Origin: a virus
Taxonomy: Duplodnaviria; Heunggongvirae; Uroviricota; Caudoviricetes
IMG/VR virus record: IMGVR_UViG_2571042636_000001
Span: 1-25,417 of that record
DNA: 25,417 nt
Direction: 5' to 3' (one strand)
In this document: positions 1 through 25,417 of the stretch, in pieces
How positions within the stretch are numbered: the stretch's first letter is position 1
Layout of the letters: every line of letters starts with the position of its first letter
The notes under the pieces: model-generated
The model's input: the letters and a program-made list of their open reading frames with translations, nothing else
Databases searched by the model: none
What the model was told of the DNA's origin: nothing
Program-made: the position numbers and the translations under genes

Positions 1-84
1 CTCACACAGCGAACCGTGCAGCATCCAGATGATGAGGATTGCCGTTACGCAGAACGTAATGGCCGTAAGCGATTTTTGCGACAT
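1..84 (-). CDS. hok: Hok/Gef-family small membrane toxin, N-terminal part; the gene runs off the left edge of the window
   Basis: Reverse-complement of 1-84 translates from ATG (complement of 82-84) as MSQKSLTAITFCVTAILIIWMLHGSLCE: a short polar N-terminus, one hydrophobic helix, then the S-L-C-E motif typical of Hok/Gef toxins. An AAGGAG Shine-Dalgarno (complement of 93-98) lies 8 nt upstream. Family assignment is from memory of Hok/Gef sequences, not a search. Confidence 0.7.
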   Translation of the reverse strand, partial: MSQKSLTAITFCVTAILIIWMLHGSLCE

Positions 85-92
85 AGCGCTTG

Positions 93-152
93 CTCCTTTT
101 TCAGGGAGGCGCTAACCTATCACTTGTCTAGGGTAGATGGTTAGGGCCTCGG
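93..152 (-). promoter_or_regulatory. Structured hok mRNA leader: Shine-Dalgarno plus an imperfect 12-bp inverted repeat just upstream
   Basis: On the plus strand, 106-117 (gaggcgctaacc) and 139-150 (ggttagggcctc) are inverted repeats with one mismatch and a 21-nt spacer, directly 5' of the hok ribosome-binding site in mRNA sense. hok-family mRNAs are known for extensive leader structure and antisense control; the antisense RNA itself was not resolved. Confidence 0.35.
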
Positions 153-344
153 TTAAACAAAAATGTTTTCCGGGGCCTTTCCACATTCGGCCTTCAGGTA
201 TTCCCTCCAGCCATCAGCCGAAAGGCACCCGCGCGAATTCTAGCCTGGTTTTTTCCCTTGTTTCAATCCGTTGAGGCCTGTCAGCCTTTTGATATAAAAT
301 TCCCGACCGTAGACATTATTCAGTCACGCATTTGATACATGCTT

Positions 345-371
345 CCGCCGGCGTTCGCGCCGGTTTTTTTT
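345..371 (+). terminator. Rho-independent terminator (GC stem, TTCG loop, run of 8 T)
   Basis: CCGGCG-TTCG-CGCCGG followed by TTTTTTTT read directly on the plus strand. The upstream transcript it serves is not identified. Confidence 0.55.
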
Positions 372-850
372 CGCCCTGTTGCTGTGTAGATCGTCATGCG
401 TGATCGAGGCGCGGTATTGATCCTTTTTTCAGTTTAATTTTGACTCTTAATTTTACACAGGCCGCGCCGCGTCTGGCTTCGTTGTTTGACGATTTTTTGA
501 TGCGATCCTTTCGTGATCGTTTCTCGTCTCGCGTAAAGTATGAAAACTCTTTTAATATCATGCGGTTTTATTGCTCCTGCCATTTGTGCGATCGTAAAAA
601 CCACTCTGAAAACTGCAAAAAATTTCAAAGCGTGAAATTTCAGATCTTCGCTTTTCCCTTAGTTACTGCGCGGGCTGGCTGTCATTTTTGCACGGCAGAA
701 AACTGAAAAACTGTTTCGACACAAAACCCGCGGGTTGGAGGGGGTAGCGCGGTTTACGTCACCTCACGCTTTACGTCACGCCGTTTGCGCGGTGTGCGCA
801 TACAGCGCCAGAATGGCACGCAGAACGATTAATCAGGTGGCAGATATGAA

Positions 851-878
851 AACGCACGGCCGGGACCGTGCGTTGCGT
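851..878 (-). terminator. Candidate intrinsic terminator ending the late tail operon
   Basis: 9-bp inverted repeat 851-859 / 866-874 (aacgcacgg / ccgtgcgtt) with a 6-nt loop; on the minus-strand RNA it is followed by a short U-rich tract, about 40 nt downstream of the stop of the 913-2610 gene. Confidence 0.45.
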
Positions 879-912
879 GATGGGGCGTTTATGTGGCTTT
901 TATGTCTGGTGT

Positions 913-2610
913 TCAGGCGATAATGTCGCCGTATTTTTCGCGCAGGCTCGTCGCCTGCAGGGCATCTGCGGCAAGTTCGCTGCTGTTCATTGGTGCGCCA
1001 GTGTTGCTATGGGTGTGGTTTGCTGTATGTGTGGCCAGTAATTGAATCAGATCCAGAATATCGATCAGCAACGTCAGCAGGTTAAGCCCTGACTTTTCCC
1101 GCGAGCCGCCGCGACCAATAAATACTGTCGGAGCGGTAAACTCCAGACCGCCGTCCGCTCTGCATGTTCTGCGGCCTCCCACGTTTTCGGTGAGGTCATG
1201 CTCAATGGTGGATATCGCCCCTTTGAGTTGAGTCAGCAAATCCTGCGCTACCATCTGGATATGCTCACCGGCTGCGATCGCATAATTGCCGGTAGTAAGG
1301 TGTTCTGTCTGGCCTGTCATCAGTTTGCTGGTACCAAGAACACTGGTTATGTCGTTTGCTTGGACTGTTGTTGTTCTGGTTGTTGTTGTGCGTTCTTCCT
1401 GATCGCTGTTAATGGTTCGCCTGGCTGAATGCTCCCTGATTTGCTGGTCGGTTTCTCTGTGCCAGCTTCCGTCAGTCGTGACGCGCTGAAACACTTCTGC
1501 GCGCTGTTGCTGCAGCTGTTCGCCGGGCTTTACATCAGGCAGGTTATGGCCTGCGGGTAAGATTTGCCTGATGACAGGTTTATCCGGTCGTCCTTCAATG
1601 TTGGATATTTCCACGATGGTGCCAGCCGGCGGGTAGGCAAAACATCCCGCCTCGCTACCAGCCATCGGGACGGGGAGTGGTACTGCCGGATAAACAGGCG
1701 TATCGCTTTTATCGTTGCCGTTCTCATCAAGCAGTTGCACATCGACGGCGTAGCGTGGGCGGAAACTGTCGGCAACATCGCCCAGGGTGACGGATTCCGT
1801 TGGGGCAATGACGCGCGCCAGCCTGGTATGTAGAGTACCGCTGGCCAGTTCCGGGAACTGTGTTTCCATCTGTCTGCGTAATGGTGATTTGGAAACAGGG
1901 CTACCCGTGGTGGTAAGGCGTTCCCATGTCAGGGTCATTTTCTCGTTGTTGAGGGCTACACGGGTAATGCGCCCGGCTGGAAGGTTCACGCCCGGTCGCA
2001 CAGTTTCCATAAACATGATGTCGATGCTGTTTCCGCCGCTTTGCCCGAGTGTGTACTGTTGCGGAATATCCGGCATGGTAATACTGGCAAACCGTGAATC
2101 CGATGCGCTTCCCACAAATACGGAACCGTCCGGCATTGGATGCCAGACGTAATCGCTGATACTGAATGCTCGCCCCAGCTGGCTAAGCAGTTGTGTTCCG
2201 CTGCCGCTGTGGGTGATGTAAGGTGTCGGAGTACCGACGTAATCCGCGTCTGGCGTGATGAAAACGATGCCGCTTTGTTTACCCAGATTATCGAGTACAT
2301 CCCGTAACGTTGGATGTTGCATGGAGCAGGGGAAATCAAAATCCAGCACGGCAGCTGCTTCACGGATAAAAAGGCGGCGTGAGCCATTTTCGGCGGGTTG
2401 ATCGCGTTCAATGTAGCCGGAGAAATAGCGCCATGCCTCACCATTACGGCCGAGATCAATTTGTATCATTGCGCCGGCAAGACTTTTTTTGGGTGGCAGA
2501 TTATTAACAGAAATGAAACCACGACCGGCAGCATTCAGGGTAAGAACAAGGCTGATATCGGCAATTTCCGCCAGCTCGCCATTAATCATACAGCGTTGGA
2601 TTAATTTCAT
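913..2610 (-). CDS. Putative baseplate central spike/hub protein (gpV / Mu gp45-like OB-fold region, histidine-rich C-terminal tip), 565 aa
   Basis: ATG at complement of 2608-2610 with a strong GAAGGAGGAAGG ribosome-binding site, overlapping the upstream stop (ATGA). The mid-region RYAVDVQLLDENG...PVYPAVPLPVPMAGSEAGCFAYPPAGTIVEISNIEGRPDKPVIRQILP fits the spike OB-fold pattern (G-x-V-x-V-x-F-x-x-G-D with flanking prolines). The C-terminus LLATHTANHTHSNTG carries an H-x-H type motif like metal-binding spike tips. Assignment is by motif recognition only. Confidence 0.45.
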   Translation of the reverse strand: MKLIQRCMINGELAEIADISLVLTLNAAGRGFISVNNLPPKKSLAGAMIQIDLGRNGEAWRYFSGYIERDQPAENGSRRLFIREAAAVLDFDFPCSMQHPTLRDVLDNLGKQSGIVFITPDADYVGTPTPYITHSGSGTQLLSQLGRAFSISDYVWHPMPDGSVFVGSASDSRFASITMPDIPQQYTLGQSGGNSIDIMFMETVRPGVNLPAGRITRVALNNEKMTLTWERLTTTGSPVSKSPLRRQMETQFPELASGTLHTRLARVIAPTESVTLGDVADSFRPRYAVDVQLLDENGNDKSDTPVYPAVPLPVPMAGSEAGCFAYPPAGTIVEISNIEGRPDKPVIRQILPAGHNLPDVKPGEQLQQQRAEVFQRVTTDGSWHRETDQQIREHSARRTINSDQEERTTTTRTTTVQANDITSVLGTSKLMTGQTEHLTTGNYAIAAGEHIQMVAQDLLTQLKGAISTIEHDLTENVGGRRTCRADGGLEFTAPTVFIGRGGSREKSGLNLLTLLIDILDLIQLLATHTANHTHSNTGAPMNSSELAADALQATSLREKYGDIIA

Positions 2611-3182
2611 GTTTTCCCTTCCTCCTTCACGCTCCCGATGCCAATCCAGTCCAGACCGGAGCCAATACCATCATTGATATTTTTCCAGAAAGTCTCCTGG
2701 GTATTCATTCCTTTATCCGGTACCTGCTCACTGCCGTTCTGTGTCTGCTGCTTTGCGATTGTTTTCTGTGAGCCACTGCGTGCCGATGCTTTTTCCGGCA
2801 CGCTTAATTTTTCCCTGAGGGTAAAGGTGACCTGCCAGTGCATCTTGCCCTGTTGTTCCGTGGCATCGATGCCGCCCGAAAAAACACCCTGTCGCATATT
2901 AATCGCCTTAGCAGTAGCGTTGGCGATGCGGTATGTTTTTTTGGCTCCGTTGCTTTCTGTTGCCTCCGCAAGCTGAAAAATACGGGTCAAAATAGCTTCA
3001 TCGTTAAAATCAATAATCCCCGACACGCGCAGCTCTTTGGCCTTGTTTCCCTGCTGGGCGCTCGTGGTGCTGGTTGATTGTCCGGACATATCTTTGTCCG
3101 GTAGTTGCATGGTGGCGCTGACGGTGATGTTGCGCAGCAGAATGGCTTCCCCGTCAAGCGCAAGGACAATCATCTGGGTCAT
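2607..3182 (-). CDS. Hypothetical protein, 191 aa, translationally coupled to the spike-like gene
   Basis: ATG at complement of 3180-3182 with an AAGGGA ribosome-binding site; its stop overlaps the downstream start. It sits in the late operon between the second tail fibre and the spike-like gene. No family recognised. Confidence 0.5.
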   Translation of the reverse strand: MTQMIVLALDGEAILLRNITVSATMQLPDKDMSGQSTSTTSAQQGNKAKELRVSGIIDFNDEAILTRIFQLAEATESNGAKKTYRIANATAKAINMRQGVFSGGIDATEQQGKMHWQVTFTLREKLSVPEKASARSGSQKTIAKQQTQNGSEQVPDKGMNTQETFWKNINDGIGSGLDWIGIGSVKEEGKT

Positions 3183-23499: not shown

Positions 23500-23811
23500 T
23501 TATTCGGGAAATAACGCCCGGATATTCCCGGCCATCTGGCTGGTTATCTGTGTGGTTGGCGTTGGAGGTGTCGCAGGGCGTTCTGCTCTGGTTTGTGTCA
23601 CTGATAACGCTTCATCATCAGCCCATGCAGCCAGTCGGTAAGCCTCTGCCGGATTCATTTTCAGAAGTGCCAGCCCGGCCAGAAAAGCCACGCGTTGGCC
23701 GCTTTTGCGGGCTTCTGGTGTAAGGCTGTCCAGCCAGGCGCATGCTTCGCCTTCGTTCTTGACGGCGGCGGGCTTCAGATAGAAACTTATCCGTCTGGTT
23801 GGTGTCGTCAT
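23500..23811 (-). CDS. parR: ParR (StbB) centromere-binding adaptor of a type II partition system, 103 aa
   Basis: ATG at complement of 23809-23811, overlapping the end of parM. Sequence RRISFYLKPAAVKNEGEACAWLDSLTPEARKSGQRVAFLAGLALLKMNPAEAY aligns by eye with plasmid R1 ParR as recalled from memory. The longer 148-aa ORF in the track is an upstream run-on. Confidence 0.8.
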   Translation of the reverse strand: MTTPTRRISFYLKPAAVKNEGEACAWLDSLTPEARKSGQRVAFLAGLALLKMNPAEAYRLAAWADDEALSVTQTRAERPATPPTPTTQITSQMAGNIRALFPE

Positions 23812-23815
23812 TGGT

Positions 23816-24775
23816 TTACTCCTTGTCCATTGCGTACAGCCCATTAACCAGAGCAAACTGTGGCACCCCGTCCGCGATGAAAGTCGCATTAACTCCGCAG
23901 GCTTCGCGGATAGCGGGTGCCACAATCTCCGCCCCGCCACCGACAACCATCACCCGCCCGTAACCCGAAAAACCCGCCAGCGCGCGGATCACGCGTTGTT
24001 TCAGTGTCTCTTCCTTTTCACGAATAACCGCCATCAGGCTGTCGTAATGCGCGCCATTGTGGATGTGCTGGCGCAGCCAGGCTTCATCATGGCGATGTTC
24101 AATAATGGTATTAGCGATATGGTGACTGGTGCGCATACCGTTGGTGGCCATCACCGACAGCACGGCATCGGCCATCAGGGAAACGCCTACGTGTGGATCG
24201 CAAAACACCTGGCTGATACCTGCCAGTTGCCCCTGAACCTTTGCCACATCCAGCGTGGTTCCGCCTAAATCAACAATAAGCAGGGATTCAAACGGACTCA
24301 TATCAGCCAGTGCTTTAAAGCCAGCCGGAATGGATTCAGGCATAACCCGCACGTTACGGATAGTGAATGCCTCACCGTTCTGGTACTCCACCGGGCGCAT
24401 AACGTTCGCTTTTTTGCGGTTGATGTTGGCCATATCCGGCTGTGCGTTTGTATCGAAATACTCGCTCAGTGGCAGGGTGACAACCACATCCACCTCCTGT
24501 GGTGTGATGCCTGATTTGACCAGCGCGTGGTGAATGGCGATTACATTCACATCGCTGTACTGGTATTGCGTGTCGGTCGTCTGGATAAAGCGATCGCTGA
24601 CCGGATCAAAACCATAGCGCACGCCATCAAGCATGTAGTTCGCAGGCTGCGAGCCACCGAACGGCGCAGACCATTCCGACTTGAAGCTGTTCGGGCTGAT
24701 GGCGTTGCGGCATTCGCCGTTCTCAGTCCATGCCAGCTTGATGTTGGTGGAGCCGTCGTCGATACAAATTTTCAT
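23816..24775 (-). CDS. parM: ParM (StbA) actin-like segregation ATPase, 319 aa
   Basis: ATG at complement of 24773-24775 with an AAGGAAAA ribosome-binding site. The N-terminus MKICIDDGSTNIKLAW, and ISPNSFK, YSDVNVIAIHHAL, VMPESIPAG, LIVDLGGTTLD, FSGY..VMVVGGGAEI and LVNGLY match the actin-fold phosphate and adenosine motifs of plasmid R1 ParM. Confidence 0.9.
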   Translation of the reverse strand: MKICIDDGSTNIKLAWTENGECRNAISPNSFKSEWSAPFGGSQPANYMLDGVRYGFDPVSDRFIQTTDTQYQYSDVNVIAIHHALVKSGITPQEVDVVVTLPLSEYFDTNAQPDMANINRKKANVMRPVEYQNGEAFTIRNVRVMPESIPAGFKALADMSPFESLLIVDLGGTTLDVAKVQGQLAGISQVFCDPHVGVSLMADAVLSVMATNGMRTSHHIANTIIEHRHDEAWLRQHIHNGAHYDSLMAVIREKEETLKQRVIRALAGFSGYGRVMVVGGGAEIVAPAIREACGVNATFIADGVPQFALVNGLYAMDKE

Positions 24776-24806
24776 GTCGCTTTTCCTTATGTTGGTTAAT
24801 TAACCG

Positions 24807-24917
24807 TTTACGGGATTTTTAAATCCCGCTTTCGCCTGTTTTGTGCGCGCTTCATATATCGCGGCGCGTTTTTTGCTCATTTACGGGATTTGTGAATCCC
24901 GTTTTTGTCTGTTTTTT
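24807..24917. repeat. parC-like centromere/promoter region: two ~39-bp direct repeats, each with a CGGGATTT..AAATCCCG inverted-repeat core
   Basis: Repeat 1 is about 24807-24845 (tttacgggatttttaaatcccgctttcgcctgttttgtg) and repeat 2 about 24879-24917 (tttacgggatttgtgaatcccgtttttgtctgttttttg). They flank a TATAT-containing spacer immediately upstream of parM. Confidence 0.65.
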
Positions 24918-25417
24918 GTTTCCACTGGTCAGGCCACCCCGCAGCAGGTCTGCTTTGCGGCGGGCGCGTTCAGTGGTTTCACTGATTCTCTGTGCGTGCT
25001 CTGCGTCGCGGATGGCGCGCAGCATGTCAGAAAGCACGGTAACGGGTGTTTTCATGGTGTTCTGGTCCTGCTGAAGAGCGGATGCCAGGCGTGCGGCGGC
25101 TTCAGGGGCTGATGCCCCCAGCTGTGCCAGATAGCTGGCGACCGGGTTATGGCGGATCTCCGTGCTGCTTACGCCATGATTACGGCTCAGGCGCTGCCAG
25201 AGCTGCGTGATTCGGCTGTCCGGGCGGGTATCCGGTTTGCGTACAATTTCAAATCCCTGCGGTGCAATGATGCTGCCGTCAACGTACAGACTGCCGCCCC
25301 GTAACAGGTGCTGCATCTGCTGTTCACCGATATGCAGGCCGAGAGATTCAGCAGACTCCCGCCATTCTTTAGCGAGTAATTCGTGGTTATCAGGCAAAGG
25401 CCGCTGCTGTTTGCGGC
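24852..25417 (-). CDS. Hypothetical protein, C-terminal part (ORF open to the right edge); possibly replication-associated
   Basis: The reading frame stays open upstream of the TTG shown as start in the ORF track, so the 5' end is outside the window. Its 3' end overlaps the parC repeats. No family confidently recognised. Confidence 0.35.
   Translation of the reverse strand, partial: RKQQRPLPDNHELLAKEWRESAESLGLHIGEQQMQHLLRGGSLYVDGSIIAPQGFEIVRKPDTRPDSRITQLWQRLSRNHGVSSTEIRHNPVASYLAQLGASAPEAAARLASALQQDQNTMKTPVTVLSDMLRAIRDAEHAQRISETTERARRKADLLRGGLTSGNKKQTKTGFTNPVNEQKTRRDI

What the first reader, a model, noticed from the sequence alone, without database searches (positions are those of the whole stretch)
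1..371. Hok/Gef-type post-segregational killing toxin at the left flank
The left edge encodes the start of a Hok-family toxin with a structured leader. Together with parMRC on the right flank, the phage structural block is bracketed by the two classical plasmid R1 stability modules (partition and post-segregational killing). Hok loci can also act in abortive infection, so this may have a defence role.
Basis: partly seen in the sequence, partly recalled or inferred. Interest (0 to 1): 0.65.

Follow-up and report, generated by a model that had tools for sequence, protein, structure and literature searches.

The report
Prophage hok/sok toxin-antitoxin cassette, cut off
[quoted passage not shown] It sits at the end of a P2-like E. 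coli prophage.

Summary
Window 84..1 on the minus strand encodes MSQKSLTAITFCVTAILIIWMLHGSLCE, the N-terminus of a 46-aa Hok/Gef peptide. A viral contig that matches window 1-300 at 299 of 300 bases supplies the rest of the ORF and the 3' fold-back element.

Upstream lie:
- a sigma-70-like promoter (266..237);
- a ~146-nt leader that matches the Rfam hok/sok model (E 4.6e-9, below the gathering score);
- a hairpin that masks the Shine-Dalgarno sequence;
- on the plus strand, a Sok-like gene (promoter 90-118, RNA ~125-181) built like the one in plasmid R1.

Diverse copies keep the predicted mRNA fold, with compensatory base changes. In the near-identical relatives the 5' end pairs with the 3' end, as in R1. 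No overlapping mok frame exists.

The cassette is a discrete ~385-nt module, about one third of which lies beyond the window edge. The same peptide is annotated in RefSeq (WP_000078916.1), in phage P88, and in PHROG 251.

ParM and ParR are real on the right flank. However, every close relative checked is an integrated chromosomal P2-like prophage, not a plasmid.

This is a known kind of element and of low interest. Its role (addiction, lysis aid or phage exclusion) is untested.

The parts
1..84 (-). hok coding sequence, codons 1-28 (ATG at 84..82). The remaining 18 codons, the stop codon and the 3' fold-back element lie beyond the left edge of the window.
   Evidence: Translation. Pfam HOK_GEF: 16.1 bits for the fragment, 29.9 bits for the full length from a relative. 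PHROG 251 at 80.6 bits. L015 is 299/300 identical to window 1-300 and gives the 46-aa ORF.
93..98 (-). hok Shine-Dalgarno sequence AAGGAG, 8 nt before the ATG.
   Evidence: Read from the sequence. GGAG (the last four bases, 96..93) is invariant in 9 diverse cassettes.
86..112 (-). Hairpin GCGCCUCC...GGAGCAAGCGC, which pairs the Shine-Dalgarno sequence with an upstream anti-SD.
   Evidence: MFE fold of the full-length mRNA from relatives L001 and L015; the truncated window-only fold does not form this hairpin. Helices 6 and 7 are 100% paired in 9 cassettes.
112..186 (-). 24-codon leader ORF (MWKGPGKHFCLTEALTIYPRQVIG). It is in frame with hok and its stop codon abuts the anti-SD arm. It does not overlap hok and is not conserved, so it is not a canonical mok.
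   Evidence: The same ATG opens ORFs of only 8 codons (933W, pB39) or 1 codon (L004, pUMNK88).
85..230 (-). hok mRNA 5' leader. The 5' end GGGUGCCUUUCGGCU (230..216) is the tac element that pairs with the 3' fbi element in the full-length RNA.
   Evidence: Rfam RF01794 over the full model at E 4.6e-9. 5'-3' closure in the folds of L001 and L015. In the window-only fragment the 5' end pairs instead with GAAAGGCCCC.
237..266 (-). hok promoter: TTGAAA, 18 nt, TAGAAT. It puts the start at about G230.
   Evidence: Promoter scan, 10 of 12 matches. Homology between cassettes from different contexts begins at the -10 box.
90..118 (+). Candidate Sok promoter: TTGCTC, 17 nt, TAACCT. The -35 box overlaps the hok SD region on the other strand.
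   Evidence: The hexamers and spacing are invariant in 25 unique leaders. The layout parallels the R1-type TTGCGC-17-TATCCT. It matches the consensus at only 6 of 12 positions and the scan did not call it.
125..181 (+). Candidate Sok antisense RNA, ~57 nt. It has a short 5' recognition part and a long terminator hairpin followed by UUU. It is complementary to nt ~50-106 of the hok mRNA.
   Evidence: Fold of -23.3 kcal/mol, z -3.7. The hairpin is kept with compensatory changes (helix 5). The 5' part is the most variable stretch of the leader. The ends are inferred.
271..371 (+). Not part of the hok cassette. It holds a plus-strand promoter-like site (271-300), an invariant 60-nt block (311-371) and an intrinsic terminator (stem 347-364 plus T8).

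Best explanation
This is the 5' two-thirds of a hok/sok-type type I toxin-antitoxin cassette, carried as a small self-contained 'moron' at the end of a P2-like, P88-related prophage.

Proposed mechanism, by analogy with plasmid R1:
1. A constitutive promoter (266..237, minus strand) makes a stable mRNA of about 360 nt.
2. In that full-length RNA the 5' tac element (GGGUGCCUUU) pairs with a 3' fbi element (AAGGCACCC, about 125 nt beyond the window edge). The Shine-Dalgarno sequence is locked in a hairpin, so the RNA is not translated.
3. Slow 3' trimming removes fbi. The 5' end then refolds onto an internal GAAAGGCCCC and the RNA becomes translatable.
4. A short, unstable antisense Sok RNA (plus strand, ~125-181) normally pairs with the leader and blocks translation or triggers RNase III cleavage.
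5. If the DNA is lost or transcription stops, Sok decays first. The 46-aa Hok peptide is then made, inserts in the inner membrane and kills the cell.

The most likely net effect is addiction: stabilising the prophage and its variable end.

What is shown here: the ORF, the promoters, the predicted pairings and their conservation. What is inferred from the R1 paradigm: transcription, RNA processing, toxicity and the biological role.
For: - Hok N-terminus with the family's conserved C..T and LCE motif (residue logo in 10.1101/2025.08.07.668861).
- The full-length relative passes Pfam HOK_GEF at 29.9 bits against a cutoff of 22 and matches PHROG 251 at 80.6 bits. It is 39% identical to R1 Hok over the core.
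- The Rfam hok/sok model covers the leader at E 4.6e-9. The same model matches an R1-type locus on the hok-sense strand at 87 bits.
- The full-length mRNAs of L001 and L015 fold with 5'-3' closure, at z -7.5 and -4.9.
- In 9 diverse cassettes, 96.1% of structure cells are paired, against 40-44% when partners are slid. Twelve pairs show changes on both sides, against 0-6 in the slid controls.
- The Sok-like hairpin has z -3.7, and its promoter hexamers are invariant in 25 unique leaders.
- Cassette homology starts at the -10 box and stops right after fbi in many different contexts.
- All five differences from L001 inside the window's hok coding part are synonymous.
- Among 80 viral loci encoding the identical peptide, 16 coding positions vary.
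Against: - The last 18 codons and fbi lie outside the window, so intactness in this particular genome is inferred from relatives that are 95.7-99.7% identical over window 1-300.
- The Rfam score of 46.3 is below the gathering score of 59.
- The Sok promoter matches the consensus at only 6 of 12 positions and the scan did not call it.
- There is no overlapping mok frame, so the R1 translational-coupling step cannot apply as such.
- The tac-fbi helix shows no compensatory change, only invariance.
- The 80 identical-peptide loci were chosen by identity, so they do not measure selection on their own.
- Chromosomal hokA, hokB and hokC loci were reported unable to mediate post-segregational killing (cited in 10.1101/2025.08.07.668861).
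Confidence: 0.85

Rival explanations
1. The molecular identity is the same, but the selected role is to help the phage's own lytic cycle. On induction Sok disappears, Hok damages the membrane early, and progeny release is faster or larger.
For: This was shown for the Stx2 prophage Sp5: deleting hokW-sokW delayed growth arrest by about 40 min and halved phage release. Sok RNA vanished after mitomycin C in a RecA-dependent way (PMC8621323). The cassette here is prophage-borne, and hok is enriched in prophages (10.1101/2025.08.07.668861).
Against: The Sp5 hokW encodes a different 51-aa Hok paralogue; the primers show MKQQKAM and a different leader. The effect there was only two-fold. Nothing in the window links hok to the late or SOS circuits. 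The window's phage is P2-like, and P2-type phages are generally not SOS-inducible (general knowledge, not tested here).
Confidence: 0.2
2. The molecular identity is the same, but the selected role is abortive infection. An incoming lytic phage shuts off host transcription, Sok decays, and Hok kills the cell before progeny mature, which protects lysogen kin.
For: R1 hok/sok on a high-copy plasmid protected against T4 (cited as reference 15 in 10.1101/2025.08.07.668861). The slot to the left of hok holds variable cargo in relatives, including a BRCT-domain protein with a weak PADLOC PDC-S48 hit.
Against: Hok has no PADLOC model match. The survey found hok no closer to defence systems than random, 12% against 9.4%. 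The T4 effect needed high copy number, whereas a prophage is single-copy. Other cargo in the slot is not defence-related: an acetyltransferase and com/mom.
Confidence: 0.12
3. The cassette is an inactive or decaying relic that hitch-hikes on the prophage and does nothing measurable.
For: Chromosomal hokA, hokB and hokC loci failed to mediate killing. One relative, L004, has a mutated tac (GGACACC) that no longer pairs with fbi, and a 1-codon leader ORF. E. albertii plasmid L010 carries a deleted ORF. The window does not show the 3' third of the cassette.
Against: In the window's own sublineage every element is intact: both promoters, tac, the SD hairpin and the Sok hairpin. The five coding differences from L001 are all synonymous. 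L015 is 299/300 identical to window 1-300 and has a complete ORF and fbi. The identical 46-aa peptide is encoded by 17 different coding sequences in viral contigs.
Confidence: 0.12

Closest known systems
hok/sok of plasmid R1 (parB locus), the paradigm type I toxin-antitoxin system
   Same: The layout is colinear. It runs from a 5' tac element, through a leader with a hairpin that doubles as the Sok terminator on the other strand, to an AAGGAG Shine-Dalgarno sequence, a small hydrophobic Hok with the SLCEIR core, and a 3' fbi element complementary to the 5' end. The antisense promoter has a 17-nt spacer and its -35 box overlaps the SD region: TTGCTC/TAACCT here, TTGCGC/TATCCT in the R1 type.
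   Different: Protein identity is only 39% over 31 residues, and the peptide is 46 aa rather than 52. There is no overlapping mok frame. The leader scores 46 bits on the Rfam model, against 87 for the R1 type. The cassette sits on an integrated prophage rather than a plasmid.
Hok/Gef family protein WP_000078916.1; P88 gp52 'MokW-like host killing' (YP_009113095.1); PHROG 251
   Same: The first 28 residues are identical to the 46-aa WP_000078916.1. The DNA of window 1-242 is 91-94% identical to the P88, Chuche and Xuanwuvirus loci. In P88 and Chuche the cassette sits at the same position, just past the last tail gene at the att-proximal end.
   Different: The sequence upstream of the -10 box and the neighbouring genes differ. 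P88 and Chuche have gpD or ogr next to hok. The window has 650 bp of non-coding DNA and an HP1-type baseplate block.
E. coli chromosomal HokA (NCBIfam NF007290)
   Same: It is the best-scoring named subfamily. Both cysteines are hard-coded (C27 and C44), so the TadA editing needed by HokB is not required (10.1101/2025.08.07.668861).
   Different: The score is 34 bits against an equivalog cutoff of 89, so this is not HokA.
hokW-sokW of Stx2 prophage Sp5 (Takada et al. 2021, PMC8621323)
   Same: It is a prophage-borne hok/sok locus with experimental proof of toxicity, of Sok antitoxin activity, and of RNase III and Hfq dependence.
   Different: It is a different paralogue: 51 aa, starting MKQQKAM. 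The Stx-phage copy that is homologous to the window (81% DNA identity) is a second locus next to lom, left unannotated in the original 933W record.

Membership tests
Hok/Gef toxin family (Pfam PF01848) | Profile score above the Pfam gathering cutoff (22 bits) | tested here: met
   The window fragment (28 aa) scores 16.1 bits, below the cutoff only because it is truncated. The full 46-aa protein scores 29.9 bits, E 4.1e-7. It is read from L001 and is identical in L015, which matches window 1-300 at 299 of 300 bases.
Hok/Gef toxin family (Pfam PF01848) | Conserved residues of the family logo: Cys and Thr in the helix, then Leu-Cys-Glu | tested here: met
   C12, T14 and L26-C27-E28 are present in the window's own 28 residues. 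The logo positions are taken from 10.1101/2025.08.07.668861. The later E and second Cys (E37, C44) are seen only in relatives.
Hok/Gef toxin family (Pfam PF01848) | Membrane toxicity of the peptide | not testable with these tools
   This needs an expression experiment.
hok/sok type I TA locus (R1 paradigm) | Long-range pairing of the mRNA 5' end (tac) with a 3' fold-back element (fbi) | tested here: met
   tac (GGGUGCCUUU) is in the window at 230..221. fbi (AAGGCACCC) lies outside the window but is present in L015, L001 and the other cassettes. The MFE folds close 5' to 3'. Helix 1 is 93.7% paired in 9 cassettes, with no compensatory change.
hok/sok type I TA locus (R1 paradigm) | Cis-encoded antisense Sok gene in the leader, with its own promoter and terminator hairpin | tested here: met
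   TTGCTC-17-TAACCT at 90-118 is invariant in 25 unique leaders. The hairpin RNA at 125-181 has z -3.7. The layout parallels R1. Only sequence features were tested; the promoter is weak against the consensus.
hok/sok type I TA locus (R1 paradigm) | Sok RNA is actually transcribed, is unstable, and neutralises hok | not testable with these tools
   No expression data are available for this locus.
hok/sok type I TA locus (R1 paradigm) | mok reading frame that overlaps hok and couples its translation | tested here: not met
   No frame with a start codon crosses the hok ATG. The only leader ORF (186..112) stops 27 nt upstream and shrinks to 1-8 codons in sister cassettes.
Rfam RF01794 (sok / hok leader) | Covariance-model score at or above the gathering score (59 bits) | tested here: not met
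   The window scores 46.3 bits at E 4.6e-9. Sister cassettes score 35.6-50.5 bits and the R1 type scores 87.2 bits. This is a divergent sub-family of the model.
HokA (NCBIfam NF007290 equivalog) | Score above the equivalog cutoff (89 bits) | tested here: not met
   34 bits.
   ParM at 23816-24775 (minus strand): StbA_N 274.7 bits and the ParM C-terminal domain 229.2 bits. ParR at 23500-23946 (minus strand): Plasmid_stab_B 84.1 bits.
   Only two 39-nt direct repeats with a palindromic core were found (24807-24845 and 24880-24918). This is not the array of ten 11-bp iterons in R1 (from general knowledge).

The most novel reading that the evidence does not exclude
This Hok sub-family may have replaced mok-hok coupling with a different control. 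In one version, a leader ORF stops exactly at the anti-SD arm, so a terminating ribosome would unmask the hok Shine-Dalgarno sequence. In another, there is no leader translation at all. Separately, in this prophage lineage hok may be paired with an undescribed ~65-nt plus-strand small RNA or insulating terminator (271-371), transcribed divergently from the hok promoter. The cassette would then anchor a variable cargo hotspot at the prophage end.
Probability: 0.15. Interest if true: 0.35.

Novelty: already known. Interest (0 to 1): 0.12.

Why it matters
This matters little beyond correct annotation. It confirms that the window begins inside a hok/sok cassette, so the gene looks truncated only because of where the window was cut.

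It also corrects the suggestion of a plasmid-like element. The host element is an integrated P2-like prophage that carries hok/sok at one end and parMR next to its replication gene. That combination is already visible in annotated P88-type phages.

Three modest points of interest remain:
- this Hok sub-family lacks a mok frame;
- it falls below the Rfam gathering score;
- it sits beside a slot whose cargo changes from strain to strain.

Tried and rejected
- Rfam at gathering threshold over the whole window found nothing. Only the permissive search showed the hok/sok match.
- The weak rseX and mir-31 hits (E 4-9) were rejected as chance. The rseX hit is carried by the terminator.
- An exact 48-mer search of one-genome-per-species contigs found nothing, so the source record was not identified. 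The viral collection gave three near relatives.
- A search for an overlapping mok frame in all three frames of 8 cassettes was negative.
- Equating the locus with the studied hokW was rejected, because the Sp5 hokW is a different 51-aa paralogue.
- HokA membership was rejected at 34 bits against a cutoff of 89.
- PADLOC has no model matching Hok, ParM or the 125-aa neighbour.
- A distant DNA search of window 262-912 against 50,697 phage records found no match. ORFs in 394-923 have no PHROG hit.
It was rerun with a 6-sequence alignment.
- The phage-plasmid reading was rejected for the relatives. Every one of the 42 places carrying the lineage-specific block is chromosomal, and a full relative has an integrase and chromosomal flanks.

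Full report
**What is in the sequence**

On the minus strand, window 84..1 reads ATG TCG CAA AAA ... and translates without a stop to MSQKSLTAITFCVTAILIIWMLHGSLCE. It runs off the left edge. The fragment has a short polar head, a hydrophobic helix and the Leu-Cys-Glu motif typical of Hok peptides.

- The fragment scores 16.1 bits on Pfam HOK_GEF, below the cutoff of 22, because 18 residues are missing.
- The complete 46-aa protein of close relatives scores 29.9 bits, above the cutoff. Its first 28 residues are identical to the window's.
- That protein also matches PHROG 251 'MokW-like host killing' end to end at 80.6 bits.
- It is closest to HokA among NCBI's named families, at 34 bits against an equivalog cutoff of 89, so it is not HokA.
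- It is 39% identical to R1 Hok across the conserved core.

**Recovering the missing part**

No record identical to the window was found among one-genome-per-species contigs. A 48-mer from the window does occur in three IMG/VR viral contigs.

- L015 matches window 1-300 at 299 of 300 bases. It continues into a complete ORF, MSQKSLTAITFCVTAILIIWMLHGSLCEIRMSFWGAEFAAFLQCKQ, followed about 85 nt after the stop by AAGGCACCC.
- The best complete E. coli genome match is 98.5% identical over window 1-3000. It annotates the same ORF as Hok/Gef family protein WP_000078916.1.
- The window's five coding differences from that genome are all synonymous.

**The RNA layer**

- *hok promoter.* A promoter scan calls TTGAAA-18-TAGAAT at 266..237 on the minus strand, matching 10 of 12 positions. 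This places the start near G230.
- *Leader.* Rfam's hok/sok model RF01794 matches 230..71 over its full length at 46.3 bits and E 4.6e-9, below the gathering score of 59. In an R1-type locus the same model matches the hok-sense strand from the mRNA 5' end to the Hok ATG at 87 bits. It is therefore effectively a hok-leader model, and the window's sub-family is a divergent member at 35-50 bits.
- *Full-length fold.* The mRNAs of L001 and L015 fold with the 5' end GGGUGCCUUUCGGCU paired to the 3' end. MFE is -158 and -156 kcal/mol, with z -7.5 and -4.9.
- *Truncated fold.* In the fragment that lacks the 3' partner, the same 5' end pairs with an internal GAAAGGCCCC. This is the kind of alternative pairing on which the R1 refolding model depends. 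That model comes from established knowledge and was not tested here.
- *SD masking.* The SD AAGGAG (98..93) sits in a hairpin with an upstream CCUCC.
- *Conservation.* In an alignment of nine cassettes that are 76-93% identical, taken from phages, plasmids and chromosomes, 96.1% of structure cells are paired, against 40-44% when partners are slid by 1-3 columns. Twelve pairs carry changes on both sides, against 0-6 in the slid controls. The covariation score is 0.174, against 0.03-0.06. The tac-fbi helix itself is conserved but shows no compensatory change.

**The antitoxin**

On the plus strand, TTGCTC (90-95), a 17-nt spacer and TAACCT (113-118) precede a ~57-nt RNA (about 125-181). This RNA folds into a long hairpin followed by UUU, at -23.3 kcal/mol and z -3.7.

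- The hexamers and spacing are invariant in 25 distinct leaders.
- They mirror the R1-type TTGCGC-17-TATCCT, including the overlap of the -35 box with the hok SD region.
- The promoter matches the consensus at only 6 of 12 positions, and the generic scan missed it.
- The stretch opposite the 5' part of this RNA is the most variable part of the leader. This fits a recognition region that differs between cassettes.
- The ends and the expression of this RNA are inferred.

**What is missing compared with R1**

No reading frame with a start codon crosses the hok ATG, so there is no canonical mok. A 24-codon ORF (186..112) lies in the leader, and its stop codon abuts the anti-SD arm. In principle that would allow coupling by hairpin melting. 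However, the same ATG opens ORFs of only 8 codons in the 933W and pB39 copies and 1 codon in the L004 and pUMNK88 copies. I therefore do not treat it as a conserved gene.

**The cassette as a unit**

Homology between copies in unrelated contexts begins at the -10 box and stops a few bases after GGCACCC. This defines a module of about 385 nt, of which the window holds about 258 nt.

Eighty IMG/VR loci encode the identical peptide from 17 different coding sequences. Many predicted prophage contigs end exactly at hok. That sample was ranked by identity, so it is not an unbiased measure of selection.

**Context**

The window is the late region of a P2-like phage:
- HP1-type baseplate proteins, tail fibres, tape measure, sheath and tube;
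- a P2-family capsid, scaffold, terminase and portal;
- ogr, then ParR and ParM, then the 3' end of the gpA-type replication endonuclease.

A relative that covers 94% of the window at 94.8% identity is a complete prophage integrated between raiA and pheL. Its order is mom/com, hok, about 830 bp of non-coding DNA, tail, head, ogr, parR, parM, gpA, and so on to int.

A lineage-specific marker next to hok occurs in 41 of 5,426 complete E. coli genomes, always on the chromosome. P88-type phages already carry and annotate both hok and parM.

But it describes a known integrated phage family, not a plasmid.

**Function**

I commit to a Sok-controlled, R1-like addiction cassette as the mechanism. My confidence in the identity and architecture is about 0.85 or higher; my confidence in addiction as the selected role is about 0.5.

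The alternatives keep the same molecular identity and differ only in role:
- *Lysis aid on induction.* This was shown for the different paralogue hokW in Sp5 (PMC8621323).
- *Abortive infection.* R1 hok/sok at high copy number excludes T4. However, a 2026 survey found hok no closer to defence systems than chance, although hok is four-fold enriched in prophages (10.1101/2025.08.07.668861).
- *Inert relic.* L004's copy shows a broken tac-fbi pairing, so decay does occur in this family. The window's own sublineage has every element intact.

**Verdict**

The element is already known and annotated, and interest is low.

Noticed in passing
window 271-371 (+): A promoter-like site (TTGAGG-18-TAAAAT, 271-300) faces away from the hok promoter. 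It is followed by a 60-nt block (311-371) that ends in a strong intrinsic terminator. The block is 100% invariant in five relatives, even where L004 diverges sharply just upstream. It could be a ~65-nt small RNA or a back-up terminator for antisense read-through. It matches no Rfam family, is never annotated, and occurs in only 41 of 5,426 E. coli genomes.
   Followed up: partly
window 372-912: About 540 bp between hok and the last baseplate gene hold no credible ORF. There is no PHROG hit and no match in 50,697 phage records, yet the stretch is 91-95% conserved in L001 and L004. P88-type phages have ogr or gpD at this position instead.
   Followed up: partly
L001 11173-11745; L004 10743-11691; L015 1-1206 (all just left of hok, outside the window): The slot between hok and the prophage end carries different cargo in each relative. 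L001 has a hexapeptide acetyltransferase. L004 has a com/mom-like methyltransferase pair. L015 has a 401-aa BRCT-domain protein with a weak PADLOC PDC-S48 hit. This looks like a variable cargo hotspot bordered by hok.
   Followed up: partly
window 23500-24918: ParR and ParM homologues lie directly downstream of the gpA replication gene. Two 39-nt direct repeats with a palindromic core (24807-24845 and 24880-24918, the second inside the gpA coding end) may be the centromere. They are unlike R1's ten-iteron parC. The role of a partition system in an integrating P2-like phage is unexplained.
   Followed up: partly
L004 11875-12278: The hok copy in the otherwise ~95% identical prophage of strain FHI_NMBU_10 is only 82.5% identical to the reference cassette from L001. 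Its tac (GGACACC) no longer pairs with fbi, and its leader ORF is 1 codon long. It is either a swapped or a decaying cassette.
   Followed up: partly
L005 1379-1758 (phage 933W, next to lom): Stx phages carry a homologue of this cassette at 81% DNA identity, immediately downstream of lom. It is left unannotated in the original 933W record (AF125520) and several other older Stx-phage records. It is distinct from the 51-aa hokW studied experimentally.
   Followed up: no
L012 332-503; window 71-230: The Rfam family RF01794, named 'sok antitoxin', matches the hok-sense strand from the mRNA 5' end to the Hok start codon. In practice it is a model of the hok leader rather than of the antisense RNA's own strand.
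   Followed up: yes
L001 16421-16942; L004 16964-17953: RefSeq annotates a 'shikimate transporter, incomplete' pseudogene inside the tail-fibre region of relatives of this prophage. It is probably an annotation artefact or a captured fragment.
   Followed up: no
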